64,000 nt of DNA from a virus (taxonomy: Duplodnaviria; Heunggongvirae; Uroviricota; Caudoviricetes): the IMG/VR virus record IMGVR_UViG_3300038968_000013, positions 49,317 through 113,316 of that record. One strand, 5' to 3'. A program made the position numbers and the translations under genes. Positions within the stretch are counted from its first letter, which is position 1. Every line of letters starts with the position of its first letter. The notes beneath the pieces are model-generated. The model was not told the DNA's origin, searched no databases, and saw only the letters and a program-made list of their open reading frames with translations. Positions 20,695-62,777 of the stretch are shown piece after piece.

Positions 20695-22020
20695 TTAGCT
20701 GTAGGTCTTAGCGACCGACCACGAACCCGTGTTAGATCCATCAGCCTGATTTACGCAGACGAAAGCGAAACGCTCCATCACACGCATCACAAGCTCGCCA
20801 GTGGTGAAACCGGCGTGAGGCGAAATGTCGATCGACATACGCTTGCGATCACCGAAGATCGCGTGCTTGAAGTCACCGTAGATCAGGAACTTCGAGCCCG
20901 AAGTGTCATCCGCAGCCTTCGGCATCACTGTCGAAGTGTAAACCGGACGACCAAGCAGACGGCGAGGCGAGGCTTCCGTTACAGAAGACACGTTGTCCGC
21001 AAGGTTGAACGGACGACCGTTGTTGTCGACCATAGCGGTCTGGATCTGGTTCCACACGTAGTTGGACATGACCCATACGCCATTCTCCTGAAGCTTCTCA
21101 TCGACCTTATTGTAGATTGCAATCAGGTCGTTCCACTTGATGTTCTTGAACGAGGTAGAACCGGAAGGAAGGGTATGGATACCCGCCGTACCAGTCTCGA
21201 CCATTACACCAGTGAACGGAGTGTGGTCGGCACGAAGCACCTGGAAGTCTTCCGCAAGGGCCACAGCCTCTGCGAATACGTCGACCAGGAAGGACATCAG
21301 ATCCGGAGTCGAATCCTCGTCCACTTCGAGCGAGATGTTGTCCAGAGCCATGAGGCGAGTTGCCACCATCTCTGGACGGGTGAACGCCTGAGTCGACTGA
21401 CCTACGCCACTCGCTTCAGTTGTCACCGCCTTGTTTGCGCCAGACGACGTGATGTTCTGGCCTACAAGAGTCGTAGGGCCATAGGTCGCGACCGGTAGAC
21501 GCATGACCTCACGGGTCATCGGCATGATGCGGCAGAGCTTGCGAGCAAGACCAAAGTTGCTCACAAGGCGGATGATTTCGTTGGCCTGCTCCGGTGGAAC
21601 AAGCACACCACCGCCCGCGTCAGGAGTACCGCCAGTGTAGACGTTACCTTCCTTCTGCGTACGTGCGTTCTTCCAGAAATCATACTTCTCATCGAGGCCG
21701 CGAGCCTTGCGAGCAAGGTCCACAACCATCATTCCTACACCCTCACGGGCGCGCGCACGGGCATCTTCCCCATTAGCAGCGGTGTAGTGCTTTTCACCGC
21801 GAGGAAGCTGCTTGTCCATCTCGTCCATGCGCTTGTTGACGTTCTCTAGAAGCCCACGGGTCTGCTCAAGGGCCGCACGAACTTCGGCGGTTTCCTTATC
21901 AATCGCAGCTCCCTTGGACTCAAACTCACGGAGGGCGGTTTCTACCTTCTCCGTCTGCTCAAGAACCGCATCCTTCAGCTTGTAAAGGGGGTTCTCGTCC
22001 TTAACATGAATGTCAGCCAT
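20695..22020 (-). CDS. major capsid protein, HK97 fold, with N-terminal coiled-coil (delta/scaffold-like) domain
   Basis: 441 aa. The N-terminal 100 aa are coiled-coil. The position after the protease and the composition are typical of HK97-family MCPs. Confidence 0.75.
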   Translation of the reverse strand: MADIHVKDENPLYKLKDAVLEQTEKVETALREFESKGAAIDKETAEVRAALEQTRGLLENVNKRMDEMDKQLPRGEKHYTAANGEDARARAREGVGMMVVDLARKARGLDEKYDFWKNARTQKEGNVYTGGTPDAGGGVLVPPEQANEIIRLVSNFGLARKLCRIMPMTREVMRLPVATYGPTTLVGQNITSSGANKAVTTEASGVGQSTQAFTRPEMVATRLMALDNISLEVDEDSTPDLMSFLVDVFAEAVALAEDFQVLRADHTPFTGVMVETGTAGIHTLPSGSTSFKNIKWNDLIAIYNKVDEKLQENGVWVMSNYVWNQIQTAMVDNNGRPFNLADNVSSVTEASPRRLLGRPVYTSTVMPKAADDTSGSKFLIYGDFKHAIFGDRKRMSIDISPHAGFTTGELVMRVMERFAFVCVNQADGSNTGSWSVAKTYS

Positions 22021-25968: not shown

Positions 25969-27441
25969 TTACATAACTCGGATTGACGCCGAGTAGTCAT
26001 ACTGTCGTTGGTTGGTGACCGTCGCAAAAGCTAGTAGTAGCGCGTCGGCACGATCGGGTGAGGGCAGTCCTCGCTTGAGAAGTTCATCCTTAGTTTCGAC
26101 ACGCCGTTGCGTTCCGTTACGTGCATAACGCACTTCCCGGTTACACAGCTGGTGCTGTAGCTCCTCGTCTCGTTGAGGGATGGAGATGCGGTCCATTGCA
26201 AGCTTACCGTCCACGAACCAAAGCTCATCTCCCCGACTGGCATAATGCTTAGGGTTCCGTGGCTTTGATCCGTTGTTAATTCCAGAGACAGTCCATCCCT
26301 GACTACGGAGAGCATCAATCACTCCTCCACCAATCCCGACTTCATCAACCACAATCAGCGTGTCATCCTGGCACTTCAGGAAGGCGTCTGGATCAAGGTC
26401 AAACTTATTCGGGTTCCCAAAGGGCTGCCGCCACCACATGGTTGCCGCCTGTACCGTCATCCCCGCAACTGACATCAGGTCGAGGCGCTTGTAGGTCTGA
26501 ATGTCCAGCACAAGGTTGCCGCGACGAACGAGGATCACGGTTTCACAGTCCCCGTACCGGGCAACGTCTACCCCAATCTGAATCGGGAGCAGCGGCATAT
26601 CCTCGCAGAAGCGGTCAAATGCCTGCTCCACCTCATCGTAACCGAAGATCGTCTTTCCCTCTGCGATCATCGGGAAGAGCCCATGGACCTTCGCCTGCAC
26701 AATCGGGGAATCTTCACCGTGTAGATCAATCAGGCGCTGGCTCGCTTCGGGGTTCACAAATGAAGACTCCCGTTGATCTACGTGCCGTGTAATCCAGTAC
26801 TTTTTGTATGACGGCTTGGTGAAGATCTCGTAGAAACGACCCGAGCGCCGTTGCGGGTTTCCAATGCAGAGACAGACGTTCCGAATGCCGCCCGTGAGAG
26901 TCGCCATCTTCGCGTCGAATTGTGCATCATCGACCCCGCTAGCCTCACTGATGACAATAAGAAGGTAGTCAGCATGGAGTCCCTGACCAGCTTCGGCATG
27001 GGCGTCCCCGGTTACCGCTGAGACACGTTTAGCCGCGATCGACTGGAAGGCCCGCCACCGCTCACCATATCCACGCACCTTTATTGTAGAGGGAGTCCAC
27101 TCCAGGAGCTGCGGTAGGTACTCAGAGTCGGAAATAACGCGTTGGATCTCCATCCAGAGCGATACTTGGATTTGCTGGGCACTCGCGGACATCGCCGCAA
27201 CCTTCGCGTACGGATGCACGAGCAGGAACCACACAATGGCCACCGACGCGAGGAAGTCTTTACCGACTCCTGTTCCCGCCGCGACCGCGACAAGATCGTT
27301 CGTGGCAAGAGACATCAGTACTTCCTCTTGCCACTTATCGAGCTTCTTTACTTGAGCAACTTCATAGGCAAACTTGACGGGATCTTTGCGGTAATCTTCC
27401 CATCGTGCCTGTAGTAGCTCTAGATCACTACTTTGACTCAC
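25969..27441 (-). CDS. terminase large subunit
   Basis: 490 aa with a P-loop-like AAGTGVGKD. The length and the position upstream of the portal fit TerL. Confidence 0.75.
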   Translation of the reverse strand: MSQSSDLELLQARWEDYRKDPVKFAYEVAQVKKLDKWQEEVLMSLATNDLVAVAAGTGVGKDFLASVAIVWFLLVHPYAKVAAMSASAQQIQVSLWMEIQRVISDSEYLPQLLEWTPSTIKVRGYGERWRAFQSIAAKRVSAVTGDAHAEAGQGLHADYLLIVISEASGVDDAQFDAKMATLTGGIRNVCLCIGNPQRRSGRFYEIFTKPSYKKYWITRHVDQRESSFVNPEASQRLIDLHGEDSPIVQAKVHGLFPMIAEGKTIFGYDEVEQAFDRFCEDMPLLPIQIGVDVARYGDCETVILVRRGNLVLDIQTYKRLDLMSVAGMTVQAATMWWRQPFGNPNKFDLDPDAFLKCQDDTLIVVDEVGIGGGVIDALRSQGWTVSGINNGSKPRNPKHYASRGDELWFVDGKLAMDRISIPQRDEELQHQLCNREVRYARNGTQRRVETKDELLKRGLPSPDRADALLLAFATVTNQRQYDYSASIRVM

Positions 27442-28112: not shown

Positions 28113-28742
28113 TTATCTTTCGATGTCGTACTGCCGGTTCACAGCAGTCATGACAATTTCGGTGATGTCGACTTGTCCGTACGCATCACCGAGTGCGCGA
28201 ATCTTCGCTTGGAAGTCCGCGTGTTGGTCACTAGGTACCCACAGGATCACACGCTCAATGGGTGTTTCCTGCGGCTTGTTCTTTTCCGATTCGGGCGAGA
28301 TCGGGTCGTTCGGATCAAGCTGCTCCTTCTCTAGGAGATAGGTCAGCTCATCTTCGCCCCAGAGCCCCTTGAGGGAATTCTCATCCTCGTGGAGTAGGTC
28401 TTTCAGCACGTCGGTATTCCATCCGCCGCCTACTTCCTGGGAGCGATTGTCGAGCAGCGCCATGCGGACCTTCTTCTTGCCCTTGAGATCCTTGCGCCGC
28501 ACCGCGATGATTTCTGATCCGTCCGTGTCGACAACACGAACCTTGGTGATCCCTGCAGCCGTAGCCGCTTCGACCACACCGTTGCCAGCGATCAGTTCAC
28601 CGTCTTCGTCGATCAGAACTGACCGACCCATGCCCACTTCATGCACGCCGTCAATCAGCATGCTGATATTCTTCTCGGTATGAATCCGAGCATTCTTCGG
28701 ATCGTACTTCAGATCCTTAACTGACTTAATGTCCTTTGCCAC
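28113..28742 (-). CDS. ParB-like nuclease domain protein
   Basis: N-terminal KYDPKNARIHTEKNISMLIDGVHEVGMGRSVLIDEDGELIAGNGVVEAA resembles the ParB/Srx fold. Such proteins often sit near phage terminases. Confidence 0.55.
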   Translation of the reverse strand: MAKDIKSVKDLKYDPKNARIHTEKNISMLIDGVHEVGMGRSVLIDEDGELIAGNGVVEAATAAGITKVRVVDTDGSEIIAVRRKDLKGKKKVRMALLDNRSQEVGGGWNTDVLKDLLHEDENSLKGLWGEDELTYLLEKEQLDPNDPISPESEKNKPQETPIERVILWVPSDQHADFQAKIRALGDAYGQVDITEIVMTAVNRQYDIER

Positions 28743-36303: not shown

Positions 36304-36660
36304 CTAGGCGTGGGCATAGATGGTTTCTTTCCAGGCGAAAGGTAGGTCGTAGACGAAGTGGTAACGTTGCTTCAGGATCTCGACCATGCGCTTCCTGCCA
36401 TCCTCGTTGATCGAGTGGCAGATCACCGACACGCCGAACTTTGCGACGTCAGGGTTCCCGATCATCCACTGCGCGAGACCGGTGCCGTCCATTTCCGTGC
36501 CGAGGTCGTGATCGAGCATGATCACGTCGTACGGAAACGACATCAGCAGCCGTTGCGCGTGGTAGGGATTCTTCGCGTAGTCCGTCTCGTGGTGTGGATT
36601 ATTCCACGAGTACTCTTTGAACCGCTCGACCTCATCGTCCACAAACAACACCCGCATCAC
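36304..36660 (-). CDS. orphan response-regulator receiver (REC/CheY-like) domain protein
   Basis: MMRVLFVDDE...YDVIMLDHDLG shows the acidic pocket and phospho-acceptor Asp context of REC domains. No output domain is present. Confidence 0.5.
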   Translation of the reverse strand: MMRVLFVDDEVERFKEYSWNNPHHETDYAKNPYHAQRLLMSFPYDVIMLDHDLGTEMDGTGLAQWMIGNPDVAKFGVSVICHSINEDGRKRMVEILKQRYHFVYDLPFAWKETIYAHA

Positions 36661-42867: not shown

Positions 42868-43223
42868 ACCAACACCCACGCCAGGAAGAAGTAGGTCAGC
42901 GCATGAAGGTACTGATCGAACCCCAGCAAGATCCAGAACCACTCGCTATTGTTCGGCAGTAAGCCGTAATGCGCACCAACGTTCATCTTGGCCCAATCGA
43001 TGTGGTAGTGAGCTACCCCGTCGACCACCATCGACAACATAGCGAGCGTCACGCTATCGCAGCACGAGAGCACAACCCAGAACGTTGCCAGCGCATGCAG
43101 CCCCGCGTGGAGAATTCCGCCAGGGTGACCGTACGTACCCTTATTGGTGTACATGTACGGATGCGCCTGCATCGGAAAGTCCACGATGAAATGCTTCGTG
43201 AATAGCCAGAAGAGTAGCGTCAT
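42864..43223 (-). CDS. polytopic membrane protein, His-rich
   Basis: 119 aa with 3-4 hydrophobic helices. Confidence 0.4.
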   Translation of the reverse strand: MTLLFWLFTKHFIVDFPMQAHPYMYTNKGTYGHPGGILHAGLHALATFWVVLSCCDSVTLAMLSMVVDGVAHYHIDWAKMNVGAHYGLLPNNSEWFWILLGFDQYLHALTYFFLAWVLV

Positions 43224-43954
43224 TAGCCCTCCATCCCCATGTCATACCCCGGATGATCCGGAATCAGGCTACCGAGATATGCTCGGTCCTGCGTGAAAAC
43301 CGGAGGACACCCATTTGTTCCCCAACCATGCGACAGGCACTCGCGCCAATACTGCTGCACACGACCGCGACGAAAGCCTTCCGGATGATTGTTCCAGTTG
43401 TCACCCTTCGCGTGAATCATGTCGTGTAGGTCGGGCGACTTCTTCCCGTGCAGTTCCTTGTGCGAGTAGTAGTGCTGCGCCAGCATCTGCAGGGAATTGC
43501 GTTCCGCATCCTGCTGCCGCCAGATGAAGTAGTTCATGACCTCGGTGCGATCTGGGATCACGAACACGCGCGCATCGAAGACAGCCGCCATGTCGACGCC
43601 CCAGCACCGGTTGAACGCGACCGATGCCGTTGCCGCCGCGATCGAGCACATTTTCTGCAGGTTGCCGTCGAACCACGCGTCGGTCTGAATCGAGTCGAAG
43701 TCCGTCAGGAGTAGCGAGATTTCGTCCGACTGCGTGAAGGCGAATTGGGTACCCTGAATGCTTTTGCAGAGCGCCAACGCGGTGACGTCCATCGCGTTCA
43801 TGAAGCCCTTATCGTATGGCTTCTCCATGTGACGAGTCAGCGTGTGAAACGCTTTCCCGTCGACACGGATGACGGTGTAGGTGCGCCGAGGAAGGGAAAT
43901 GCGGTACCGATCTTCGTACTGCTCCTTCATGCGATCACCTAGCGAGTCAGGCAT
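43223..43954 (-). CDS. tRNA-His guanylyltransferase (Thg1-like protein)
   Basis: YEDRYRISLPRRTYTVIRVDGKAFH, EKPYDKGFMNAMDVTALAL and AFTQSDEISLLL align with the Thg1 family blocks (..VVRLDGRGFH.., ..KPNDERALNLMN.., ..YGYSDEYSFVF). Confidence 0.65.
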   Translation of the reverse strand: MPDSLGDRMKEQYEDRYRISLPRRTYTVIRVDGKAFHTLTRHMEKPYDKGFMNAMDVTALALCKSIQGTQFAFTQSDEISLLLTDFDSIQTDAWFDGNLQKMCSIAAATASVAFNRCWGVDMAAVFDARVFVIPDRTEVMNYFIWRQQDAERNSLQMLAQHYYSHKELHGKKSPDLHDMIHAKGDNWNNHPEGFRRGRVQQYWRECLSHGWGTNGCPPVFTQDRAYLGSLIPDHPGYDMGMEG

Positions 43955-46185: not shown

Positions 46186-46431
46186 TCAGATAACCCGAAG
46201 GTGTTCGCAGAAAACGTACAGATTGTGCTTCACTGACGGGTGGTCCATCTTCACCGTTGCGCATTTCCCGTCGAGAGCAATCACGGTACCGTACTTCGCG
46301 CCGCGCATCCACAGGTCGCAAGCCGGATGCAACTCGATTCGATTCCCTACAGTAACCGTCTTTCCTTGGTAGTCCGTCATAGTCACCCCTCCAGTGCCCA
46401 AATCCATATCGACCTTCTCGGATTCTGTCAA
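46186..46431 (-). CDS. hypothetical protein
   Basis: 81-aa ORF, the last minus-strand gene before the repeat region. Confidence 0.3.
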   Translation of the reverse strand: MTESEKVDMDLGTGGVTMTDYQGKTVTVGNRIELHPACDLWMRGAKYGTVIALDGKCATVKMDHPSVKHNLYVFCEHLRVI

Positions 46432-46439
46432 GCTTTTTC

Positions 46440-47980
46440 TGGATGGATTTCTGATGATTCGTTATTTGTTCAACTTGGTAGCTAACTTAGGCGACTTGCC
46501 AGAGACGCTACTTTGGGCTGGATCAATTTGAAACTGGGTGGGTTATACATATGCGGGACTTTGGGGAGGAGCTATTCAGGGAAACGTGAAATATTATAGC
46601 GCGGGGGTACACTACAGAATAAGCTAACTCATTGATCCGACTGGGAAAACCAAATTGCCCAATGTTTTCGCGGGGTTAGGGGCTGGACAAGATCCGTGCC
46701 AGCCGATTGGCACGGGACTTGCTAGCGATCGTTGGCATGCGGATTATCCCTGCTAGATCGCGGGGTTACGCGCTTCCCCAAAACATGAGGGGTATCGCGG
46801 ACTTAGGGCACCTAATGAAATCAGGTACTTAGCGCCAATGTCCGATAATGTTCTATTATGTCAACTCGCCACTCCAATTAAATCAGGTACTTAGTTAGGC
46901 TCGCCGAATATTATTAGGTCGCGGGGCCGTTACGCCTAACGCGCTTTTCGGCCAGGTGTGGCATAATCCTTGCTAGAACCGACGCGTAAGGCGTTGGCAT
47001 GATTCTTGCAGGGTCGGGGATCGCTAGGGTGGCCCCCCCCTGTATCATTTCGTTACACCCTGTCTCATTTTAACACATATCGACCCATCCCTTAGTGCGT
47101 CATTATGTCGCACCTACCTTAGGCGAAAGTCGCTTCCTTAACAATTCCGGGCACTTACCCGAGCTGGCACGATTCTCGCGTATCTGATTCTTCTTTACTT
47201 TCGCGCACTTAGGTCTGGTATGGTACTAGTGACATAGGCGAAAGTAGGGCAGATTTTGACGGCGTGCGTCATTTTTCGCTAAACTTTCGCTTTTCTGGAC
47301 CATGCGCTAATCGAGCGGAAACCGGCATAGGCAACGCGTCAAGGTCGGTTGATACATTGGCATGGTCTCAGGGTTGCGCGTGTCCTAGGGCAATTGTGGA
47401 CGTTCTAGACCTACGTTCCGAATGACATAGGTTGTTTCGGTTGCTATCTATTAAGGGCGGTTCCCGGTTCGCCCGGTTGGTTCCCGTTCCCGTGGCCTCG
47501 GCGCGGTTGGCCACGGTTCCCGGTTCGCTCATGGTTCCCGGTTGAATTGGCCACGGGTCGCGGTTGGTTTTCTGGGCTAGACGCGCGCCCGCTAGCGTCT
47601 AATCGGGCGCGAATTTTCCCGGTTGGTAGCGGATTATGCGCTAAGTACCCGGAAACATTAGAAAAGAAAAATTACGATTGACGCATTTTTTTTGTTGACA
47701 ACCGCTTGCGGTTTCCTTAGGATCGGTTCCGTTGATAGCGCAACCCCGCATGACGGCGGTTCGCGGATTCCGTAGGGTGCAAGGTTGTTCGCCGTTTCGC
47801 ACGCGGTTCAACGGAACGTGCGTTAAGGTTCGCGGCGCGCTAATCCGTAGGCTTTGACGTCGGAACGTTGCCCGGTTCCGATACCATGCCACATAGGGCG
47901 GAAACATTGGGAACGCGGTTGACCCTCACTGCTAAACCGCGCGGAATTAACCGCGCCGTTTACCTAGGAGGGTTTCACCA
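46440..47980. repeat. 1.5-kb repeat-dense non-coding region (candidate origin / partition / control region)
   Basis: No credible ORF. Direct repeats TTGGCA(C/T)G..TGCTAG x4 (46700-47030), AAATCAGGTACTTAG x2 (46815, 46882), TAGGCGAAAGT x2, and CGGTTCC/GGTTCCCGGTT x>8 (47460-47900). Palindrome CCGTGCCAGCCGATTGGCACGG (46693-46716). Also contains a C8 tract (47035-42) and T8 tracts. Confidence 0.6.
47695..47723 (+). promoter_or_regulatory. sigma70-like promoter TTGACA-N17-TAGGAT preceded by an A/T-rich UP-like tract
   Basis: TTGACA at 47695-700, 17-nt spacer, TAGGAT at 47718-23. It points into the plus-strand module. Confidence 0.45.
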
Positions 47981-48153
47981 TGGCAAAGGTTGTCGGCAAG
48001 GTTGTTTTGCGTAACGGTAAGGTTGCAACGCACGGCGGTTGCGCGTTGCTGCGTCGTTCCCTTTCCGGTCTCACGGTTCGTGTCATGACGTCGCCGAACA
48101 TTCGGCGCGAAACCGTCATGGCGCACGCGTTGCGGTTGGCGGTTGCCCGGTAG
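47980..48153 (+). CDS. small hypothetical protein (57 aa)
   Basis: AGGAGG RBS 8 nt before the ATG at 47980. Translates MAKVVGKVVLRNGKVATHGGC... and is below the track's length cut-off. Confidence 0.3.
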   Translation: MAKVVGKVVLRNGKVATHGGCALLRRSLSGLTVRVMTSPNIRRETVMAHALRLAVAR

Positions 48154-48264
48154 GTAGCAAGTAGGACGCTCGCGCGGTTCGGAGCGTCTTACATGATATC
48201 AACCGGTCAAGGTTGGTTTCCCGTGTCGCATGGTGCGGCATAGTATCTAGGAAAGGTTCGAACA

Positions 48265-49188
48265 ATGGCGCACGAATTGGAAATGAACAACGGCGAAGCT
48301 TCCATGATCTATTCTGGCGAGCTTCCGTGGCATGGTCTCGGTTTTCGGATTCCGCGAAACGTTCCGTGGGAAATTGGTTTCGTGAAATGCGGCGCCGATT
48401 TTCATGTTCAGCGTGCGAAGCTTCAAACGGAAACCGGTTCGCACGTTCCGGGTCATTTCGCGTTGCAACGCACGGATACCGGGCGCGTGCTTTCCGTGGT
48501 CTCGGATCGGTATTCGGTGATTCAAAACGTGGACGCGTTCCGGTTGTTCGGCGAAGCATTCGGAAGCGCGGCGGTTTTGCATACTGCCGGGGTTTTGCGG
48601 CATGGCGCGGAAGTTTGGGGGTTGGCGGAATTGCCGCCCATGGCCATCGTCTCGCGCGAGATTCATCGTCGTTTTTTGCTGGTCACTACTGGCCACGGTT
48701 CGCGCAAAGCGTTGAAAGTGATTCCGACCGCAACGCGCGTCGTTTGCGCGAATACTCTCGCGGTTGCGCTCGGCGGTTCCACGGATGGAATTACCATCCG
48801 GCATTCCGGCGACGTCAACGCGAAGCTTGCCGCCGCTGGCGAAGCGTTGAACGCGGCATATGCCGAATTCAACGCCTATGCCGAAACGGCGGAACGGTTG
48901 GCAAATAAGACGTTGACCAATGGCGAGCGAACCGAATTGCTCGAAACGGTTTTCGGCGACAATTCGGAAGCGATCGACCGTTGCAAATTCCTTGCGGTTC
49001 ACGGCAAGGGTCAACGCGGTTCTGATATCGTCGGGAGCGCATACGCGTTGCTGGCGGGAATCACGGATTACGTAGACCACGAAACCCGTGCGGCGCGTTC
49101 CCGGAACGTCAACCGTCGTTTCGCGGTTGCGACGCTTGGCGCGGGCGCGCGCGTCAAGTCAAAAGCGTTGCAATTGCTCGCGGCGTAG
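48265..49188 (+). CDS. DUF932-like phage/plasmid protein
   Basis: 307 aa. N-terminal MAHELEMNNGEASMIYSGELPWHGLG is typical of the DUF932 family found in ICEs and phages. Confidence 0.5.
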   Translation: MAHELEMNNGEASMIYSGELPWHGLGFRIPRNVPWEIGFVKCGADFHVQRAKLQTETGSHVPGHFALQRTDTGRVLSVVSDRYSVIQNVDAFRLFGEAFGSAAVLHTAGVLRHGAEVWGLAELPPMAIVSREIHRRFLLVTTGHGSRKALKVIPTATRVVCANTLAVALGGSTDGITIRHSGDVNAKLAAAGEALNAAYAEFNAYAETAERLANKTLTNGERTELLETVFGDNSEAIDRCKFLAVHGKGQRGSDIVGSAYALLAGITDYVDHETRAARSRNVNRRFAVATLGAGARVKSKALQLLAA

Positions 49189-49191
49189 TTT

Positions 49192-49266
49192 GAACGCTAG
49201 ACGCGTGCGCTCGCATAGGCGCGCGTCTAGACGTTTGCACTAACGCGAACGGGAAAGGTTTAGACG
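49192..49266 (+). repeat. conserved intergenic cassette, copy b (GC-rich imperfect palindrome + GTTTGC-ACTAAC-GCGAAC hairpin + GGGAAAGG RBS)
   Basis: Shares about 60 bp with copies c and d. It ends 6 nt before the ATG at 49267. Confidence 0.6.
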
Positions 49267-49662
49267 ATGATTCAACGCATGTCGGAACCGGAATTGTTGG
49301 AACGGGCGGCAACCGCCGCACGGTTGGCAATGCGGGCGCGAACCGGAAACGGTTTCGCCTATTTTTTTCGCATGGCGGTTGAAACCGACCGCGAATTACA
49401 GGAACGCGCCGCAACGCGGGCGGTTGTTTCGGCAATGCTCGCAAGCGTTCCGGAAAACAACGCGCGCGCGCTGGCAACGCTCGCGGCATTCGGGCGCGCG
49501 TTCACCATGACGGCGGCAACCGAGACCAACGGCGACAACGGAAGCGACAACGGCGACGGCGGGTCAAAGGTTCGGCGACGAAAACCGCGACCGCAACCGC
49601 CATCGGGAACGCTCGCGGAATTGTTCGCGGCGAAGCTTGCGACCGCGAACGGGAAAGGTTGA
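49267..49662 (+). CDS. hypothetical protein
   Basis: 131-aa, Ala-rich ORF preceded by cassette b. Confidence 0.4.
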   Translation: MIQRMSEPELLERAATAARLAMRARTGNGFAYFFRMAVETDRELQERAATRAVVSAMLASVPENNARALATLAAFGRAFTMTAATETNGDNGSDNGDGGSKVRRRKPRPQPPSGTLAELFAAKLATANGKG

Positions 49663-49665
49663 CCA

Positions 49666-49890
49666 ATGAGCTATACCCTCACGAAACGGCAATTGACAAC
49701 GCTTCGCGCGGGGTTGACCCGCGCTATTGGTTCGGGCGATGCGGCGAAAGTAGCAAAGCAGGTTCGCGGCGCCCGCGTTGTTTTCGACTCGTTCGGCTAT
49801 CCCGATTGTTGGTCAAATTGGCAACGCGCATGGGACGATTTCTGCGCGAATGATGTTCGCTTTTTCGGCGAACCTAACCCGATGCATTAA
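49666..49890 (+). CDS. hypothetical protein
   Basis: 74 aa. Its GCGAACGGGAAAGGTT RBS module is embedded in the 3' coding end of the previous gene. Confidence 0.4.
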   Translation: MSYTLTKRQLTTLRAGLTRAIGSGDAAKVAKQVRGARVVFDSFGYPDCWSNWQRAWDDFCANDVRFFGEPNPMH

Positions 49891-49974
49891 ACGTGAAACC
49901 GCTAGACGTTGCGGAATCCGCGTTTATTGCGTGGTATGCCGCATGGGTTGTCGGCAACCTGCTTTTCTAGTGTC

Positions 49975-50056
49975 AACGTCGGGCGCGTGCGCTAGTCTCG
50001 GCGCGCGTCCTATCGTTTGCACTAAACGCAAACGGGAAAGCGAGACCGAAACGAAT
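49975..50056 (+). repeat. conserved intergenic cassette, copy c (hairpin GTTTGC-ACTAAAC-GCAAAC)
   Basis: Same architecture as cassette b. It precedes the ATG at 50057. Confidence 0.6.
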
Positions 50057-50797
50057 ATGGGAAAACTTTTGACCCTTGGAAGCTGCAACGCAAAAACCGT
50101 GAAAGGCGAAGCATTCGGGGTTTTGACCGGGATTCTTCACCTTGCGCCGGAACGCGCCAGCGGTTTCAATGTTTGCGCCTATGCGGGCGCGTGCGTCGCG
50201 CCATGTCTTAACACTAGCGGGCGCGGTCGACCCGAAACCCCGCTAGGTGAACGGATACAATCGGCGCGGTTGCGTAAGACGGCGCGGTTTTTTTCCGACC
50301 GCGCCGAATTCATGCGAGACCTTGTGCGCGACGTTGCGGCGGTTGAACGCAAAGCGAAACGGCGCGGCATGGTTCCGGCAATTCGGTTAAACGGAACGTC
50401 GGATATTCCATGGGAACGCGTAGCGGTTGGCGCGGCGCCGAATATCATGGCGTTGTTTCCTGACGTGCAATTTTACGATTACACGAAATACCCGGTAGCG
50501 CGGCGGTTGCTGCTTCCGCCGAATTACCATTTGACGCAATCGCTGGACGTTGGCCACAATTCGGAACGCGAAGCGTTGACCGCGCTTTCCATCGGGCGAA
50601 ACGTGGCGGTTGTTTTTCCCGTGGCGCGTTCCGGACCTTTACCCGAAACGTTTACGCTAGGCGCGTCAACGTTCCCGGTAATCAACGGCGACGCTTCCGA
50701 CCTTCGATTTACTGACCCGGTTGGCGTTATCGTGGGGTTGCGTGAGAAAGGTCGGGCGAAGCATGACGCAAGCGGATTCGTGCGGGCGGTTGCCTAA
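50057..50797 (+). CDS. conserved phage hypothetical protein
   Basis: Start MGKLLTLGSCNAKT inside the track ORF 49778..50797 and preceded by cassette c. 247 aa. Confidence 0.45.
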   Translation: MGKLLTLGSCNAKTVKGEAFGVLTGILHLAPERASGFNVCAYAGACVAPCLNTSGRGRPETPLGERIQSARLRKTARFFSDRAEFMRDLVRDVAAVERKAKRRGMVPAIRLNGTSDIPWERVAVGAAPNIMALFPDVQFYDYTKYPVARRLLLPPNYHLTQSLDVGHNSEREALTALSIGRNVAVVFPVARSGPLPETFTLGASTFPVINGDASDLRFTDPVGVIVGLREKGRAKHDASGFVRAVA

Positions 50798-50877
50798 ATG
50801 ACCGACGCAATGCGCGTTGTCTGGAATTGCGTTAAACTTGCCGTTGCGTTGTATCTGCTAGGACGGTTGACCCGGTA

Positions 50878-50955
50878 GCGTAAACGCTAGGCGCGTGCGC
50901 TGGTCTCGGCGTGCGTCTAGACGTTTCCACTAACGGAAACGGGAAAGGTTGCACG
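50878..50955 (+). repeat. conserved intergenic cassette, copy d (hairpin GTTTCC-ACTAAC-GGAAAC, compensatory change)
   Basis: The stem changes G-C to C-G at the same pair relative to copies b and c. It precedes the ATG at 50956. Confidence 0.6.
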
Positions 50956-51207
50956 ATGAATGTTCCTGAGATTGTTTGCGGCAATTGCGACCAATGGAAA
51001 CACGCAACGGGAAACGACGCGGCGCCGTTTGATTGCGTCAACCGTTGCACGGAACGCAAACTAGATCCGGTCTCGCGTTGCCGAACATGCGAGACGAAAC
51101 TTGACGCGCGTGCGCATGTGGACATGCGTTCCGACAATCGCGGCGCCTATTGCTCGCGCGTATGTTTGAACGGCGCGACGAAACTACAGGAAAGGTCGGG
51201 ATACTGA
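50956..51207 (+). CDS. Cys-rich zinc-finger-like small protein
   Basis: MNVPEIVCGNCDQW...CVNRC...CRTCE...CSRVC. Confidence 0.4.
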   Translation: MNVPEIVCGNCDQWKHATGNDAAPFDCVNRCTERKLDPVSRCRTCETKLDARAHVDMRSDNRGAYCSRVCLNGATKLQERSGY

Positions 51208-51210
51208 ACC

Positions 51211-51456
51211 ATGGAAATTTTCTATTCTGACGGTGGACACGGCGGACCTTACCCTAGCGTCTATGCCGCAGAATGCGCCGCTCGCGTCTATGTGAAACGG
51301 AACGCGCGTCTAGGTCGCAAAGTCTCGGTTCAAGTAAGACGGTCGACCACGGAAACGGAACCGGTTTCCACGGTTGACGTCAAAACGTGCATTGTGACGG
51401 CGGCAATTGACGGCGACGTCGAGACCGTGCGCAAATTGCTCATGGTGCTTTCATGA
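51211..51456 (+). CDS. hypothetical protein
   Basis: 81-aa ORF. Confidence 0.35.
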   Translation: MEIFYSDGGHGGPYPSVYAAECAARVYVKRNARLGRKVSVQVRRSTTETEPVSTVDVKTCIVTAAIDGDVETVRKLLMVLS

Positions 51457-51722
51457 GTCGACCACGGGTCAAACAATGGGAACGGTTGCCGTCATGGGAA
51501 CGCATGCCGGGTCAACCGAGACCGGAACCGGAAACGGAACCGCCGCTATGCTTCGCGTGCGGCGCGGCGTACGTTGACGCGGTTGGCGTTGCGTGCGGCG
51601 GTTGCGTGGACGATTGCGTTGCGTGTCGATACTGCCGAACCGCATACGCGTTGAGCAACCGCGACGATTGCGCCGAATGCGCGTTGACGGCGGCAATGTC
51701 GCGGCATGAATCCGAACGATAG
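51453..51722 (+). CDS. Cys-rich small protein
   Basis: 89 aa with multiple CxxC pairs. Confidence 0.35.
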   Translation: MSRPRVKQWERLPSWERMPGQPRPEPETEPPLCFACGAAYVDAVGVACGGCVDDCVACRYCRTAYALSNRDDCAECALTAAMSRHESER

Positions 51723-51749
51723 ACCACGGGCGGAACGCTTTGACCCTAA

Positions 51750-51780
51750 CCGGGCGAAGCGTTCCGCCCGGTTTTTTTTT
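51750..51780 (+). terminator. rho-independent terminator
   Basis: CCGGGCG(51750-56) AAGCGTTC CGCCCGG(51765-71), a perfect 7-bp stem, followed by T9. Confidence 0.65.
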
Positions 51781-52277
51781 GCCTACCAACCGCCAACCGC
51801 TAACCGCGCCAACCGCGAAACCCTACCTAGAACGCGCCACGTTGACCGTAGACGCGCGCGCGCCCTATCCCCTACCCTATCCCCTACCCTCGCCGTTGCG
51901 TTGCTCTAATCGAATCCTAGGACGTCGCCTAATAAATCGCGGGTCGCCGCGACCACGCACCTTTCGTGCCAACCTGATTCCCATTATTAAGAATGGGAAT
52001 GTAAATGTAACAATGACAATGTAATTCTTACATGTAGGAATGTAAGTTTTACAACGGGGGGTCGCGCAGGGAGGCAGCGCGGCGCAATAGCCCAAAAATC
52101 GCTTCGAACCGCTGGGAAAAATGACCTCTTTGGACCAACCGCCTAACCCTGTAAACAAACTCAACTTTTCGCAATTTTCGTTTTGAAAGTTTTCGTTTTG
52201 AAATTTCTTCACGAAAAATTTGCGGAATCGTGATATAATTATTGCGAATAATTGAGAGAGGGGGGGGGTGTTTTGAG

Positions 52278-53453: not shown

Positions 53454-53969
53454 TTAGTTGCTGGGCTCGACGCCATGGAGGATCGGCGGGGCGAGACGCG
53501 TTGGCGTCGGCGTCGGCGTAGCACTCCGAGTAGGCGTTGTTGTTGCCACGGGCGTTACCGTCCGCGTGCTTGTTGGCGTTGCGGTGGCTGTTGCGGTTGG
53601 CGTTGGTAGCGTCGCGAATCGGTCTGGCGTATCACACGGATCGACGCCACCACACCCGGTACACGATTCACCCGCTGTGTTTGATTGGCACAGGCGGAAA
53701 CGAATAGTGTCACCCGGTGAAGCAAGCGTAGAGAAATCTGCGCAAAGCACGCCCGGTTGTGGTGAAGGGCAAGGTGCTTGAACCGCCAGAACGTTCGTAA
53801 TGACGGTCTGTTGCGTTGGCGTGAGGCGCAGTAGTCGCGCCCCCGTTGCCGAGGAATCGAACGGAGCAAACCTCGCACGAAAGTTTTGATTGGTTTGCGC
53901 GTTAGCAAACTGCGCGAGGTATAGAATGAAAACGATGATCGCAGCTAGTGCGAAAAACAGCTTACGCAT
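53454..53969 (-). CDS. secreted protein with Thr/Pro-rich linker
   Basis: Likely start MRKLFFALAAIIVFILYLAQFANA|Q. The C-terminal stretch is TPTATATATPTSTRTVTPVATTTPTRSATPTPTPT. Confidence 0.4.
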   Translation of the reverse strand: MRKLFFALAAIIVFILYLAQFANAQTNQNFRARFAPFDSSATGARLLRLTPTQQTVITNVLAVQAPCPSPQPGVLCADFSTLASPGDTIRFRLCQSNTAGESCTGCGGVDPCDTPDRFATLPTPTATATATPTSTRTVTPVATTTPTRSATPTPTPTRLAPPILHGVEPSN

Positions 53970-54444
53970 GTGGCTTCTCCATGATCGACTGCACGATCGC
54001 GAGGGAGTTCTTTGCATTGATATGCAGCACGAACAATCCATTCGCCTCGATCCAGTCTTTGGCGTACTTGAGGTAATCGTCCACGAGGATATCTCCCGCG
54101 TGGCAGTATTTGTTCTTCAGGAACGAGCGCCCCACGGTACACATAGTGAAGCCCTTGAAATGCTCCTGGCCCCACGCGATCTTTTGCGCCTCGGACCACC
54201 CACCTTCTGGGCATCCGGTCAGGATCACGGGGCGGTACTTTTGTAGCCCGCGCATGAGATCCCAGGCGTCGGGCATAACGGGCAGCTCCGCGTAGAAGTT
54301 TGGCGCCTTCTCGCGAAGCTTAGCCCAGGCTTCTTCCCAACCGAGTTTTTCCTCGGTTTCCTTCATGGAGCCACCCATGAGGTCGGCGTACGCGCGGTCG
54401 AAATCCGCGAGCACGCCGTCACAGTCGATGAAGATCCGGCGCAT
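53962..54444 (-). CDS. HAD-family 5'(3')-deoxyribonucleotidase-like
   Basis: Likely start MRRIFIDCDGVLADFD, a HAD motif I of the NT5C type. Confidence 0.55.
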   Translation of the reverse strand: MRRIFIDCDGVLADFDRAYADLMGGSMKETEEKLGWEEAWAKLREKAPNFYAELPVMPDAWDLMRGLQKYRPVILTGCPEGGWSEAQKIAWGQEHFKGFTMCTVGRSFLKNKYCHAGDILVDDYLKYAKDWIEANGLFVLHINAKNSLAIVQSIMEKPHA

Positions 54445-54582
54445 TACCAAAGCTTGTTCCAGATCTTGCGGTACCGAGCTGCGAGAGTATCGTTGGTGCG
54501 ACCGTCGAACGTTTCGAGCGACCACACGACGATGACGGCGAGGTTCGCCACCACGAATGCTGCACCGATGAATCCCACCATG

Positions 54583-61160: not shown

Positions 61161-62777
61161 TTACAGACCCTTCGCGAACTCCGAGATTAGCTGCGGGGTG
61201 GCAGTGTCGAAGCCCACCACGTCGAGCTGACCCGGATCGTTTGGATCTGCGATGGTGAAGTTGGTCGCAGTCATGCCGACCGTTACCATCTTGCAGTCCT
61301 TCTTGTTCATGCGCGTACGGAACTGGCGCAGAGCAGTGCTCGCGTGCGTGTTCCCGGCCCAAACCTCGTTGTCCGTGATGATCACGAAGCAATCGACGTC
61401 GAGGCTATGCTGCATCGCGTACTTCATTGCGACCGCACCGTCCGTACCACCGAAGTTGGCGTCCTGAGCAGCGCGCGCAGCATCACGGAGCGACATGCCC
61501 GGATGGATACGAAGATCCTTGAAGTGATGCGCGAATCCACCGATGAAATAGTTGCTCTCGGTGTTTGCGATCACGAGCGCCATTGCTGCTGCGCCGATGC
61601 ACGGAGTCAGACCCGGCACGCCCGCGATGCTGCCGCCCGCCATCGAGCCCGAGACGTCGACTCCCAGGAAGAAGTTCTTCCCGGTCGGCTCGACCGCCTT
61701 GAACGCGAGGTAGAACGCCTCGTCGAGGGCCTTGACCACCTTCTGCGAAGGTGTCCAGGTCTTGGACATGTCGCGGGCACCACGCCCCGCCGCGTACGTC
61801 AGGTTCGCAGCCAGGATCTGAATCGGATGCACACGGCCCTTGATGATCGCGTCCTGGTTGCCCAGAAGCTTCACGATGTCCTTCTCGGCCTGCGACAGCG
61901 GCTTCAGCAGTCCGACACGCGTCATGGTCGCCAGGTTGCGGATGACCATGGTGATCCCGCCCGTCGACAGCAGCGCCTCCCAAACCTCTGGAGCGTTCAG
62001 CAGCTGCGTCGGGATGATCTCGCGCGGCAGGTTGAAATCGGTGATCAGCTGCACCGCAGTCTTCACGTCGGCCTTGGTAGCCCCCGTGATTGCCTGCATG
62101 ACACGCGCACCCTCGATCATGTCCGGACCCTTGGTGAAGTCTTCCTTCTTCAGGGCGAACTCGAAGACAGCACGGCGCATAGCATCGTCGGTCTTCGGAT
62201 GCGTCAGACGCAGGAGGTCACGATGCGACCAACCGTCACGCTGCTGGTACTTCACGACCTGCAGTGCCAGCTTGTCGACCGGCTTGGCAAGGTACCAATC
62301 ACGCACCGCGTTCTTCAGCGCACGACCCCAGCCACGATACTGGCGGGCGAAGGCGATGAAATGGAACAGATGCGTTCCAGTACGCGCGACCTTGTGCAGA
62401 TTGGCGAGCGCGTAACGCTTCACGTCGTCGCTACCCTCGGAGGCAGCGTATGCCAGTGCCAGCAGCGCCGGATCGTTCTTCGGCGCGCGACCGTCCTGCG
62501 AAATCTGGACGATCTCGTTGACGAGACGCATGCCATCCTCCAGGAGGCACGCCTTGACGGCGTTCAGGCTCTCCTTGGTGTGCTGGCGCTGGTCAGCGTA
62601 GTACGTCCCACCCTCGGTGCCGAGGATCAGGAAGCGACGCAGATGCATCCAATGCCCGGTGGCAAAAACGTAACCACCCGCATGGTTCTTCACCTGGCGC
62701 GCGTCCAGCGGCTCCGACTCCGGAACCGGCTTCGAAATCTCGTTCAGTAGATAGCTTCCCTTGCGTCCCATCGTCAT
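61161..62777 (-). CDS. rsr: Ro60/Rsr ortholog (TROVE domain + C-terminal vWA/MIDAS domain)
   Basis: GGYVFATGHWMHLRRFLILGTEGGTYYADQRQ...ISQDGRAPKNDPALLALAYAAS aligns with the N-terminus of the Ro sixty-related protein (..RFLILGSEGGTYY..RAPKND). GVDVSGSM is a MIDAS motif. Confidence 0.85.
   Translation of the reverse strand: MTMGRKGSYLLNEISKPVPESEPLDARQVKNHAGGYVFATGHWMHLRRFLILGTEGGTYYADQRQHTKESLNAVKACLLEDGMRLVNEIVQISQDGRAPKNDPALLALAYAASEGSDDVKRYALANLHKVARTGTHLFHFIAFARQYRGWGRALKNAVRDWYLAKPVDKLALQVVKYQQRDGWSHRDLLRLTHPKTDDAMRRAVFEFALKKEDFTKGPDMIEGARVMQAITGATKADVKTAVQLITDFNLPREIIPTQLLNAPEVWEALLSTGGITMVIRNLATMTRVGLLKPLSQAEKDIVKLLGNQDAIIKGRVHPIQILAANLTYAAGRGARDMSKTWTPSQKVVKALDEAFYLAFKAVEPTGKNFFLGVDVSGSMAGGSIAGVPGLTPCIGAAAMALVIANTESNYFIGGFAHHFKDLRIHPGMSLRDAARAAQDANFGGTDGAVAMKYAMQHSLDVDCFVIITDNEVWAGNTHASTALRQFRTRMNKKDCKMVTVGMTATNFTIADPNDPGQLDVVGFDTATPQLISEFAKGL

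What the first reader, a model, noticed from the sequence alone, without database searches (positions are those of the whole stretch)
47475..47565. Cluster of GGTTCCCGGTT / GGTTGGCCACGG direct repeats
At least five copies of a CGGTTCC-core 11-mer lie within 90 bp, flanked by TTGGCCACGG x2. This is a typical look for a protein-binding array (centromere-like parS or an iteron).
Basis: seen in the sequence. Interest (0 to 1): 0.5.

Follow-up and report, generated by a model that had tools for sequence, protein, structure and literature searches.

The report
Direct-repeat array upstream of phage early promoter
A real cluster of short GGTTCCCG repeats lies just upstream of the early promoter of an uncultivated large phage and is most likely a set of protein-binding sites controlling that promoter, not a plasmid-type centromere or replication origin; it is also the densest point of a CGGTT motif that is strangely over-represented across the whole early operon.

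Summary
There are four GGTTCCCG cores (47459, 47479, 47515, 47533; three are exact GGTTCCCGGTT), two degenerate copies (47555, 47614), two TTGGCCACGG and one inverted CCGTGGCC. That is far above chance, but it is not five exact 11-mers.

The array lies in a 1.55-kb ORF-free gap between divergent gene blocks of an environmental tailed phage, 130-270 bp upstream of a conserved sigma70-type promoter (47695-47723). Two more CGGTTYCC copies bracket that promoter's -10. The only useful relative (L027, about 77% nt identity) keeps four cores with different number and spacing, and lacks TTGGCCACGG.

I found no ParA, Rep gene, DnaA box, RNA structure or conserved ORF. The replication module lies at least 25 kb away. 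The parS/iteron reading is therefore not supported.

An operator or upstream binding array for an unidentified regulator is the best guess (about 0.4).

Unexpectedly, CGGTT(G) is enriched about 10-fold across the whole early operon, also after codon shuffling, and in L027 too. A second, inverted CGGTTGG array follows the operon's terminator.

The same gap holds a dif-like XerCD site and three sigma54-consensus promoters.

The parts
47459..47471 (+). repeat copy a, GGTTCCCGGTTCG (exact 13-mer)
   Evidence: The orthologous copy in L027 is GGTTCCCGATTCG.
47479..47491 (+). repeat copy b, GGTTCCCGTTCCC (core GGTTCCCG intact)
47515..47527 (+). repeat copy c, GGTTCCCGGTTCG (exact)
47533..47545 (+). 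repeat copy d, GGTTCCCGGTTGA
   Evidence: The orthologue in L027 is GGTCCCCGGTTGG.
47555..47567 (+). degenerate copy e, GGGTCGCGGTTGG. It overlaps the start (47559) of the first copy of a ~26-nt module (YCCGGTTGGTAGCGGATTAGACGCT-like) that recurs at 47617, 47726 and 48147.
47614..47626 (+). outlying copy f, TTTTCCCGGTTGG, about 100 bp upstream of the predicted start of the early promoter; conserved in L027
47490..47516 (.). CCGTGGCC-N11-GGCCACGG inverted pair (the second arm is part of TTGGCCACGG at 47507-47516). It lies in a 33-nt insertion specific to this window.
   Evidence: Absent from L027.
47547..47556 (+). second TTGGCCACGG, in a 24-nt insertion specific to this window
   Evidence: (family D1)
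47695..47723 (+). sigma70-type early rightward promoter P_R: TTGACA-17-TAGGAT, preceded by an AT-rich stretch (35% GC)
   Evidence: In L027 it is TTGACA-17-TACTAT, with the hexamers kept and the spacer changed. GC profile.
47709..47730 (+). two promoter-proximal copies, CGGTTTCC (47709-47716) and CGGTTCC (47724-47730), bracketing the -10 hexamer
   Evidence: In L027: CGGTTCCC ... CGGTTCC (family D4).
47430..51785 (+). early rightward block (57-aa ORF, DUF932, 131 aa, 74 aa, GP88, two Cys-rich proteins, 81 aa) with operon-wide excess of CGGTT(G): 55 copies on the + strand and 25 on the - strand
51727..51781 (+). strong intrinsic terminator that ends the early operon (19-nt arms plus a T9 run)
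   Evidence: I20; conserved in L027
51786..51822 (-). second, inverted array. Read on the + strand: CCAACCG CCAACCG CTAACCG CG CCAACCG CGAAACC, which is CGGTTGG-type heptamers on the - strand.
   Evidence: L027 has one unit fewer.
46382..47979 (.). ORF-free control region between the leftward promoter (TTGACA at 46431-46426 on the - strand) and the first rightward ORF. Some blocks are about 100% identical to L027.

Best explanation
The cluster is an array of direct repeats with an 8-bp core GGTTCCCG, usually extended to GGTTCCCGGTTSG. Most likely it is a set of binding sites for a sequence-specific DNA-binding protein, phage- or host-encoded and not identified, that controls the early rightward promoter P_R.

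Shown: the array is real and local. Its core is kept in the one informative relative, while copy number and spacers change. It lies 130-270 bp upstream of a conserved sigma70-type promoter. Two further CGGTTYCC copies bracket that promoter's -10, and another copy lies at about -100.

Inferred: a regulator occupies the promoter-proximal copies to repress or activate, and the upstream array raises its local concentration or allows cooperative or looped binding, as multi-site operators do.

The array is also the peak of an operon-wide CGGTT(G) excess, and a smaller inverted array follows the operon's terminator. The same protein, or another process, may therefore act on the whole early operon.
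For: - Statistical reality of the cluster.
- Conservation of the core with variable spacers. In L027 the array is GGTTCCCGATTCG..GGTTCCCGGAT GGTTCCCGCAT GGTCCCCGGTT, while the flanks are about 90% identical.
- In L027 all four cores fall within about 2 bp of one helical face (offsets 0, 19, 30, 41). In the window three of four do (0, 20, 56, 74). This is my own arithmetic on the coordinates.
- P_R hexamers are conserved while its spacer diverged. CGGTTYCC copies lie on both sides of the -10 in both phages.
- All copies are on one strand.
- No RNA structure (z = +0.70 and +0.99), no Rfam family and no conserved ORF. A DNA-level role is what remains.
Against: - No candidate binding protein was identified. 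None of the neighbouring proteins has a recognisable DNA-binding domain.
- There is only one informative relative. Of the two substitutions in orthologous copies, one hits the core, so selection on the core is not demonstrated.
- The window-specific parts are plain local duplications of 18-40 nt (families D1 and D6).
- The array is the most indel-prone part of an otherwise well conserved stretch.
- The more distant syntenic relative L029 has no such array.
- Individual CGGTT copies in the operon are no better conserved than average 5-mers (52% against 48%).
Confidence: 0.4

Rival explanations
1. The array has no function of its own. It is a slippage or duplication hot spot that amplified an oligomer (CGGTT, GGTTCC) already favoured throughout this operon for some other reason.
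For: Copy number and spacing differ between the only two relatives, through indels of 33 and 24 nt. The window's extra units are recognisable 18-40-nt local duplications (families D1 and D6), and L027 has a plain 11-bp tandem. The array is the least conserved part of 47380-47740. Array 2 also differs by one 7-nt unit. CGGTT copies turn over at the neutral rate. L029 lacks the array.
Against: Both lineages still keep four intact or nearly intact 8-mer cores despite about 23% divergence. Spacers differ between copies, which is not the pattern of a simple microsatellite. Further copies sit at precise promoter positions in both phages. The density is six times the already high local background.
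Confidence: 0.25
2. The array belongs to an operon-scale, strand-biased motif system, in which many copies of CGGTTG on the sense strand act by number and orientation. It could be a Chi-like attenuator of a host nuclease on the first DNA expressed or entering, a nucleation-and-spreading protein, or an RNA-level motif bound on early transcripts. The two inverted arrays would mark the boundaries.
For: There are 55 CGGTT copies on the + strand in 4.36 kb, against 5.6 expected from the coding strand of the other genes. Inside ORFs there are 36, against 13.1 +/- 2.9 after synonymous-codon shuffling, in all three frames. CGGTT and GGTTG are the top 2 of 1024 pentamers (z = 6.2-6.7, control gene sets at most 3.9), and CGGTT is also top in L027 (z = 5.7). 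Orientation flips at the operon end, where the inverted array follows the terminator. Turnover of individual copies at a maintained density fits motifs that act by count.
Against: No known system matches. The motif is also enriched 5-fold on the antisense strand. The array lies upstream of P_R, so it is outside that transcript. The enrichment is confined to 4.4 kb, whereas Chi or KOPS would be genome-wide. The host, and therefore its Chi sequence, is unknown. L029 lacks the enrichment.
Confidence: 0.15
3. The repeats are iterons of a replication origin: they bind an initiator and melt the AT-rich stretch about 90 bp to the right.
For: Direct repeats lie next to the most AT-rich 60 nt of the gap (35% GC at 47650-47709). 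The site is at a switch of GC skew and of transcription direction. A promoter lies nearby, as with transcriptional activation of lambda ori (that comparison is from memory).
Against: The units are short (8-13 bp) and irregularly spaced. No DnaA box lies in the gap. No initiator gene is adjacent: the HTH_36 protein and DnaB helicase lie about 8-10 kb beyond the window's right end, roughly 25 kb away. The AT-rich stretch is explained by the promoter's upstream element. In phages, skew follows transcription direction.
Confidence: 0.07
4. The repeats are a centromere-like parS bound by a ParB-type protein for partition of a plasmid prophage.
For: This is a repeat array in a non-coding hub that also holds a dif-like XerCD site, which would suit a circular, plasmid-like replicon. 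A protein matching PHROG 'ParB-like partition protein' exists at 28113-28742.
Against: No ParA or other partition ATPase was found in the genes scanned or in the 10 kb beyond each end. The ParB-like protein lies beside the terminase, has no Pfam match at E<0.01, and weakly resembles a methyltransferase. The repeats are not palindromic. There is no DNA similarity to any plasmid.
Confidence: 0.05
5. The C3 tracts of the repeats form a G-quadruplex (on the - strand) or an i-motif (on the + strand) that acts as a structural signal.
For: Only 4 G3-N1-8 x4 motifs exist in the window, all on the - strand. One is in the array (47463-47491) and one lies 40 nt right of array 2 (51863-51889). L027 has its only such motif in the array.
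Against: This follows automatically from repeating a CCC-containing unit. One loop is 8 nt and the tracts are minimal (G3). No independent evidence supports it.
Confidence: 0.03

Closest known systems
Multi-site operators and upstream binding arrays of phage early promoters (for example lambda OR/OL, recalled from memory)
   Same: Several copies of one short motif lie at and upstream of a conserved early promoter in a divergent control region. A second group of sites lies a few kb away at the other end of the regulated block.
   Different: The sites here are asymmetric direct repeats, not 17-bp near-palindromes. The distal array is 130-270 bp upstream. No repressor gene has been recognised. 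The second array follows a terminator rather than lying at a promoter.
Untranslated repeat region / injection stop signal (iss) of phage T5 (Davison, bioRxiv 10.1101/866236)
   Same: [quoted passage not shown] It is better conserved than nearby coding DNA, with a related repeat block in inverted orientation a few kb away. A deoxynucleotidase (NT5C-like) gene lies nearby (53962-54525).
   Different: No paired DnaA boxes. No sequence or protein relationship to T5-like phages (TerL at most 33% identical to unrelated phages). The position relative to the genome ends is unknown.
Iteron arrays of plasmid and lambdoid origins
   Same: Direct repeats on one strand, roughly in helical phase, with an AT-rich stretch next to them.
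   Different: The units are much shorter than 17-22 bp and the spacing is irregular. No adjacent initiator gene and no DnaA boxes. The replication genes are about 25 kb away.
Centromere arrays of partition systems (P1 parS heptamer/hexamer boxes; omega-protein heptad arrays of pSM19035; recalled from memory)
   Same: Short repeats of 7-11 bp in variable number, bound cooperatively. Arrays can double as operators.
   Different: No ParA/ParB or delta/omega-type gene pair nearby. The heptads are not contiguous in array 1. No IHF-centred architecture.
Over-represented polar oligomers (Chi, KOPS; recalled from memory)
   Same: A 5-7-mer strongly over-represented with a strand bias, present inside genes in all frames. 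Individual copies are not conserved, but the density is maintained.
   Different: The enrichment is limited to one 4.4-kb operon instead of a whole replichore. The antisense strand is enriched too. The tandem arrays at the boundaries have no counterpart.

Membership tests
parS / ParABS centromere | Cognate partition ATPase and centromere-binding protein encoded in the replicon, usually next to the site | tested here: not met
   No ParA-type protein among the ORFs scanned with PHROGs and Pfam, or in the 10 kb beyond each end. The only ParB-like match (28113-28742) lies beside the terminase 19 kb away. About 29 kb of the 113-kb contig, and some window ORFs, were not examined.
parS / ParABS centromere | Palindromic site or defined box A/box B architecture | tested here: not met
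   All cores are direct and on one strand. The only inverted pair (CCGTGGCC/GGCCACGG) is absent from L027.
parS / ParABS centromere | Specific binding by ParB and stabilisation of a replicon | not testable with these tools
   Needs EMSA or ChIP and a plasmid-stability assay.
Iteron-type replication origin | At least three direct repeats of about 17-22 bp at regular, helically phased spacing | tested here: not met
   Units of 8-13 bp. Spacing is 20/36/18 bp in the window and 19/11/11 bp in L027.
Iteron-type replication origin | Adjacent initiator (Rep) gene and/or DnaA boxes | tested here: not met
   No DnaA box with up to 1 mismatch in the gap. The HTH_36 protein and DnaB lie about 8-10 kb beyond the window's right end.
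Iteron-type replication origin | AT-rich unwinding element next to the repeats | tested here: inconclusive
   A 35% GC stretch at 47650-47709 lies 90 bp to the right, but it coincides with the upstream element of P_R.
Operator / upstream regulator-binding array | Motif copies overlap or closely flank a core promoter and cluster within about 300 bp upstream | tested here: met
   CGGTTYCC at 47709 and 47724 brackets the -10 of TTGACA-17-TAGGAT. There is one copy at about -100 and four to five at -165 to -270. The layout is the same in L027.
Operator / upstream regulator-binding array | Core of the site conserved in relatives while spacers vary | tested here: inconclusive
   L027 keeps 3 exact and 1 near-exact cores with different spacers. 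This rests on one relative, and one of two orthologous substitutions hits the core.
Operator / upstream regulator-binding array | Identified cognate DNA-binding regulator | tested here: not met
   No HTH, RHH or other DNA-binding domain in the flanking proteins by PHROGs, Pfam or PADLOC. The small Cys-rich proteins at 50956-51207 and 51453-51722 remain untested candidates.
T5-type untranslated repeat region (iss) | Non-coding region over 1 kb, dense in direct and inverted repeats, and better conserved than neighbouring genes | tested here: met
   46382-47979 has no conserved ORF, 37 direct and 32 inverted repeat families, and blocks about 100% identical to L027 against 74-84% in the genes.
T5-type untranslated repeat region (iss) | Paired DnaA boxes; position at the first-step-transfer boundary inside a terminal repeat; relationship to Tequintavirus | tested here: not met
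   No DnaA boxes. TerL is at most 33% identical to unrelated phages. The genome ends are unknown and cannot be tested here.
Structured non-coding RNA | Folding energy better than shuffled sequence, a conserved structure, or an Rfam match | tested here: not met
   z = +0.70 (window) and +0.99 (L027). No Rfam match at gathering score, and only noise at E<5. The one hairpin is not conserved.

The most novel reading that the evidence does not exclude
The early operon of this phage lineage is marked by an operon-scale oligomer code. CGGTTG is kept at about 10 times the normal density on the sense strand, inside genes in all frames. A dense array lies in front of the promoter and an inverted array lies behind the terminator. 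This would be a previously undescribed way of tagging the first-expressed DNA: for example a Chi-like shield against a host nuclease, or a nucleation-and-spreading regulator that opens or silences the whole operon. The array in this finding would be its main loading site.
Probability: 0.12. Interest if true: 0.75.

Novelty: new variant of a known kind. Interest (0 to 1): 0.45.

Why it matters
If the array is an operator, it is a handle on the early regulatory switch of a large, uncultivated phage lineage. That lineage also seems to use sigma54-type promoters and carries a dif-like XerCD site, and both are unusual for tailed phages.

If the operon-wide CGGTT(G) excess is functional, it would show that a phage can keep a short oriented motif at very high density across one operon, independently of the proteins encoded. 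No known system explains that. It could be tested by recoding the genes.

Tried and rejected
- **DNA similarity.** The gap has no DNA match in isolated phages or plasmids.
- **Exact-pattern scan of IMG/VR** for two GGTTCCCGGTT within 3-12 nt. It gave 5 contigs with tandem GGTTCCC heptamers. They share no special proteins with this phage, and at least one lies inside an ORF. I judged them unrelated.
- **Search for more relatives.** Via DUF932, the 81-aa protein, GP88, the 140-aa protein and a conserved 21-mer. Only L026-28 (one lineage, identical to each other) and the distant L029 cover the gap. Other assemblies of the same phage are identical in the array.
- **Structured RNA.** Rejected.
- **Small ORF over the array.** Rejected. 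The frames and ends are not conserved, although both indels are multiples of 3 nt.
- **Invertible or mobile cassette bounded by the two arrays.** No long inverted repeats.
- **Upstream activator site for a downstream sigma54 promoter.** No GG-N10-GC match to the right of the array.
- **Literature string search for the motif.** Only primers were found.
- **Alphaproteobacterial LexA box (GTTC-N7-GTTC, recalled from memory).** It appears in the 11-bp tandem, but that follows automatically from the repeat, and the host is unknown.
- **Host identification via the dif-like site.** The same dif type occurs in Acidobacteriota, Myxococcota, Nitrospira and Actinomycetota, so it does not discriminate.
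- **Solved structures for DUF932 and GP88.** None found.

Full report
**Context.** The window is part of an uncultivated tailed phage. It encodes a portal protein (23660-25957), a large terminase (25969-27441), a major head protein (20695-22020) and a 1145-aa tape-measure-sized protein, all on the - strand, plus three tRNAs and a Ro/TROVE-like protein. The same sequence occurs in several metagenome assemblies, on contigs of up to 113 kb. No isolated phage is close: TerL is at most 33% identical to any, and there is no DNA match.

The finding lies in a gap without conserved ORFs, 46382-47979. Left of the gap the genes run leftward, and a conserved TTGACA-17/18-TATGGA promoter sits at 46431-46403 on the - strand (my reading). 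Right of the gap a rightward block holds a 57-aa ORF, DUF932, small proteins and GP88. That block ends at a strong terminator at 51727-51781. Cumulative GC skew turns here.

**The observation.**
- GGTTCCCGGTT is exact at 47459, 47515 and 47533. With up to 1 mismatch there are 6 matches in the window against 1.1 expected.
- The 8-mer core GGTTCCCG occurs four times in 82 nt, out of 11 in 128 kb of both strands.
- Allowing up to 2 mismatches to GGTTCCCGGTTSG adds 47555 and 47614.
- TTGGCCACGG is exact at 47507 and 47547, with an inverted CCGTGGCC at 47490.
- CGGTT occurs ten times on the + strand in 128 nt. Simulated sequence gives at most 4 per 130 nt, and 1.5 Mb of unrelated environmental loci gives at most 5.

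So the cluster is real. It holds four good copies plus degenerate ones rather than five 11-mers. It also starts 16 nt left of the stated coordinate.

**Comparison with relatives.** Only two other lineages cover this region.

L026-28 come from three Logan assemblies and are identical to each other. Their DUF932 is 92% identical in protein to the window's. They align across the gap at 75-88% nucleotide identity, which is similar to or above the 74-84% of the genes, and some blocks are almost 100% identical.

In this relative the array reads GGTTCCCGATTCG CCCAAC GGTTCCCGGAT GGTTCCCGCAT GGTCCCCGGTTGG. That is four cores spaced 19, 11 and 11 bp apart, with no TTGGCCACGG. The window has two extra segments of 33 and 24 nt, and both are recognisable local duplications (families D1 and D6). 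The flanks on both sides are about 90% identical.

So the core motif persists, while copy number and spacers are fluid and the TTGGCCACGG units are a recent addition in this lineage.

The distant syntenic relative L029 (DUF932 50% identical) has a comparable 1.35-kb gap but no such array.

**What lies next to the array.** A sigma70-type promoter, TTGACA-17-TAGGAT, lies at 47695-47723 behind an AT-rich stretch. In L027 it is TTGACA-17-TACTAT, with the hexamer positions kept and the spacer changed. That is good comparative support for a real promoter, here called P_R.

Two further copies of the motif, CGGTTTCC at 47709 and CGGTTCC at 47724, lie directly on either side of the -10 in both phages. 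Copy f lies at about -100. The main array spans about -165 to -270.

This layout, with sites at the core promoter plus an upstream cluster all in one orientation, is what a regulator-binding array looks like. It is the main reason for my preferred explanation.

**What it is not.**
- *RNA structure.* The array folds no better than shuffled sequence, in the window (z = +0.70) and in L027 (z = +0.99). Rfam gives nothing.
- *Coding.* ORFs across the array are not conserved in frame or extent.
- *Origin.* The gap has no DnaA boxes. The replication genes (an HTH_36 protein and a DnaB helicase) lie about 8-10 kb beyond the window's right end.
- *Centromere.* No partition ATPase was found among the ORFs scanned in the window or in the 10 kb beyond each end. 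The one ParB-like protein sits next to the terminase.
- *Plasmid relationship.* No plasmid DNA matches.

**An unexpected wider pattern.** The CGGTT core is not a general oligomer of this phage: elsewhere there are 0-6 copies per 2 kb per strand. The rightward early block, however, is full of it. There are 55 copies on the + strand and 25 on the - strand in 4.36 kb, against 5.6 and 5.1 expected from the coding strand of the other genes.

Inside the eight ORFs there are 36 copies, in all three frames. Shuffling synonymous codons, which keeps the proteins and the block's own codon usage, gives 13.1 +/- 2.9 with a maximum of 23 in 1000 shuffles. Among all 1024 pentamers, GGTTG and CGGTT are the two strongest outliers (z = 6.7 and 6.2). 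Control gene sets from the same phage reach only 3.5-3.9. In L027, CGGTT is again the top outlier (z = 5.7), while L029 shows nothing.

Individual copies are no better conserved between the two phages than average 5-mers, 52% against 48%. What is maintained is the density, not the positions.

Directly after the operon's terminator lies a second array, at 51786-51822: CCAACCG CCAACCG CTAACCG CG CCAACCG CGAAACC. This is CGGTTGG on the opposite strand. It has one unit fewer in L027, and the strand preference flips there.

I cannot explain this. It keeps open a reading in which the motif acts by number and orientation, at the DNA or RNA level. It equally feeds the null reading that the arrays are by-products of a locally favoured oligomer.

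**Weighing the explanations.**
- Operator or upstream binding array: 0.40.
- Neutral duplication hot spot: 0.25.
- Part of an operon-scale polar motif system: 0.15.
- Iterons: 0.07.
- parS: 0.05.
- G-quadruplex or i-motif signal: 0.03.
- The remainder is unassigned.

The evidence for function is positional and comparative, but it rests on a single relative. No binding protein was found.

**Comparison with known systems.** In how it probably works, the array most resembles multi-site operators of phage early promoters.

In architecture, the gap as a whole resembles the untranslated repeat region of T5 that contains the injection stop signal. [quoted passage not shown] It is conserved better than nearby genes and has an inverted partner block a few kb away (Davison, bioRxiv 10.1101/866236). 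This phage, however, has no DnaA boxes in the gap and no relationship to T5.

It fails the tested defining features of parS and of iteron origins. The membership table gives the details.

**Other features of the gap.** A dif-like XerC/XerD core, three sigma54-consensus promoters and several further repeat families share the gap. They are recorded under things noticed in passing. The gap looks like a dense control hub rather than a single-purpose site.

Noticed in passing
window 46837-46866 (also L027; L029 about 3645-3670): A dif-like XerC/XerD core: AATG TCCGATAA TGTTCTA TTATGTCAAC T, with a 7-nt central region here and 6 nt in L029. The pattern TCCGATAA-N3-7-TATTATGTCAAC hits more than 120 metagenome contigs and 18 IMG/VR contigs with unrelated flanks. 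The extended form hits 86 genomes of Acidobacteriota, Myxococcota, Nitrospira (including a complete chromosome), Actinomycetota and others. Compare the published dif sequences of E. coli, B. subtilis and F. alni (PMC3025954). It suggests Xer-mediated dimer resolution or integration in a large tailed phage. In the window it is flanked by two direct 19-mers, AAT[GT]AAATCAGGTACTTAG, at 46814 and 46876.
   Followed up: partly
window 46708-46723, 46959-46974, 46995-47010 (weaker: 47165-47180); L029 3290, 3318, 4108 and, on the - strand, 8477 and 8495: There are three exact matches to the sigma54 promoter consensus TGGCAY-N5-TTGCW. All are in the gap and all point rightward (0.19 expected in 64 kb). 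L027 has weaker versions and L029 has five good ones. No sigma54 activator (PF00158) was seen. The 573-aa AAA protein at 55823-57544 matches the classic AAA family PF00004.
   Followed up: partly
window 47430-51785 and 51786-51822: CGGTT(G) is in operon-wide excess (about 10-fold, robust to codon shuffling, shared with L027 but not L029), and an inverted CGGTTGG heptamer array follows the terminator. This is unexplained.
   Followed up: yes
window 49185-49260, 49968-50040, 50890-50958 (related: 47576-47600, 48165-48190): A repeated intergenic element of about 70 nt precedes several early genes. It has a hairpin (CTAGACGCGTGCGC...GCGCGCGTCTAG), then ACGTTTGCACTAACGCAAACGGGAAAGG and the start codon. 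It is also repeated in L027.
   Followed up: partly
window 51983-52060 (L029 8510-8630 is analogous): An AT-rich block nearly 100% identical to L027, built of ATGTAA/TTACAT repeats. It lies in a second non-coding gap (51782-52241) after the early operon. L029 has TGTACGATCATACA repeats at the equivalent place. This may be another binding array or an origin candidate.
   Followed up: no
window 51863-51890: A perfect tandem CCCTATCCCCTA x2.3, which is telomere-like on the - strand (GGGTAGGGGATAGGG...). It is one of only four G-quadruplex-type motifs in the window. L029 has a related CCTATCCTACCCTATACC.
   Followed up: no
window 46486, 46802, 47118, 47208, 47716 and related positions: A recurring (TCGCGSA)CTTAGG motif, 11 on the + strand against 1 on the - strand in the window, concentrated in the gap (family D4, 15). 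CTTAGG also occurs in the gap of L029.
   Followed up: no
window 46590-46725: A block about 100% identical to L027, far above the coding regions. It includes the hairpin CGTGCCA-N6-TGGCACG, whose loop differs between the phages while the stem is kept.
   Followed up: no
window 47743-48147: A segment of about 400 nt, including the 57-aa ORF with a good ribosome-binding site (47980-48153), is absent from L027. The ORF is lineage-specific or not a real gene.
   Followed up: partly
window 46382-46431: The mechanical 81-aa ORF (46186-46431) starts at a TTG that is really the -35 (TTGACA) of a conserved leftward promoter. The real start is probably the ATG after GGAGG, giving 64 aa, as called in the Logan assembly.
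   Followed up: partly
window 61161-62777, 36304-36660, 43223-43954: An RNA-repair or RNA-handling gene set: a Ro/TROVE-vWA protein, a cyclic-phosphate-processing receiver domain (cREC_REC) and a tRNA-His guanylyltransferase-like protein. No Y RNA was detected by Rfam.
   Followed up: no
window 48265-51722 (coding parts): GGCCG, CGGCC and GCAGC are absent from the early-operon ORFs, although about 6 copies of each are expected after codon shuffling. This may be restriction-site avoidance in the early DNA.
   Followed up: no
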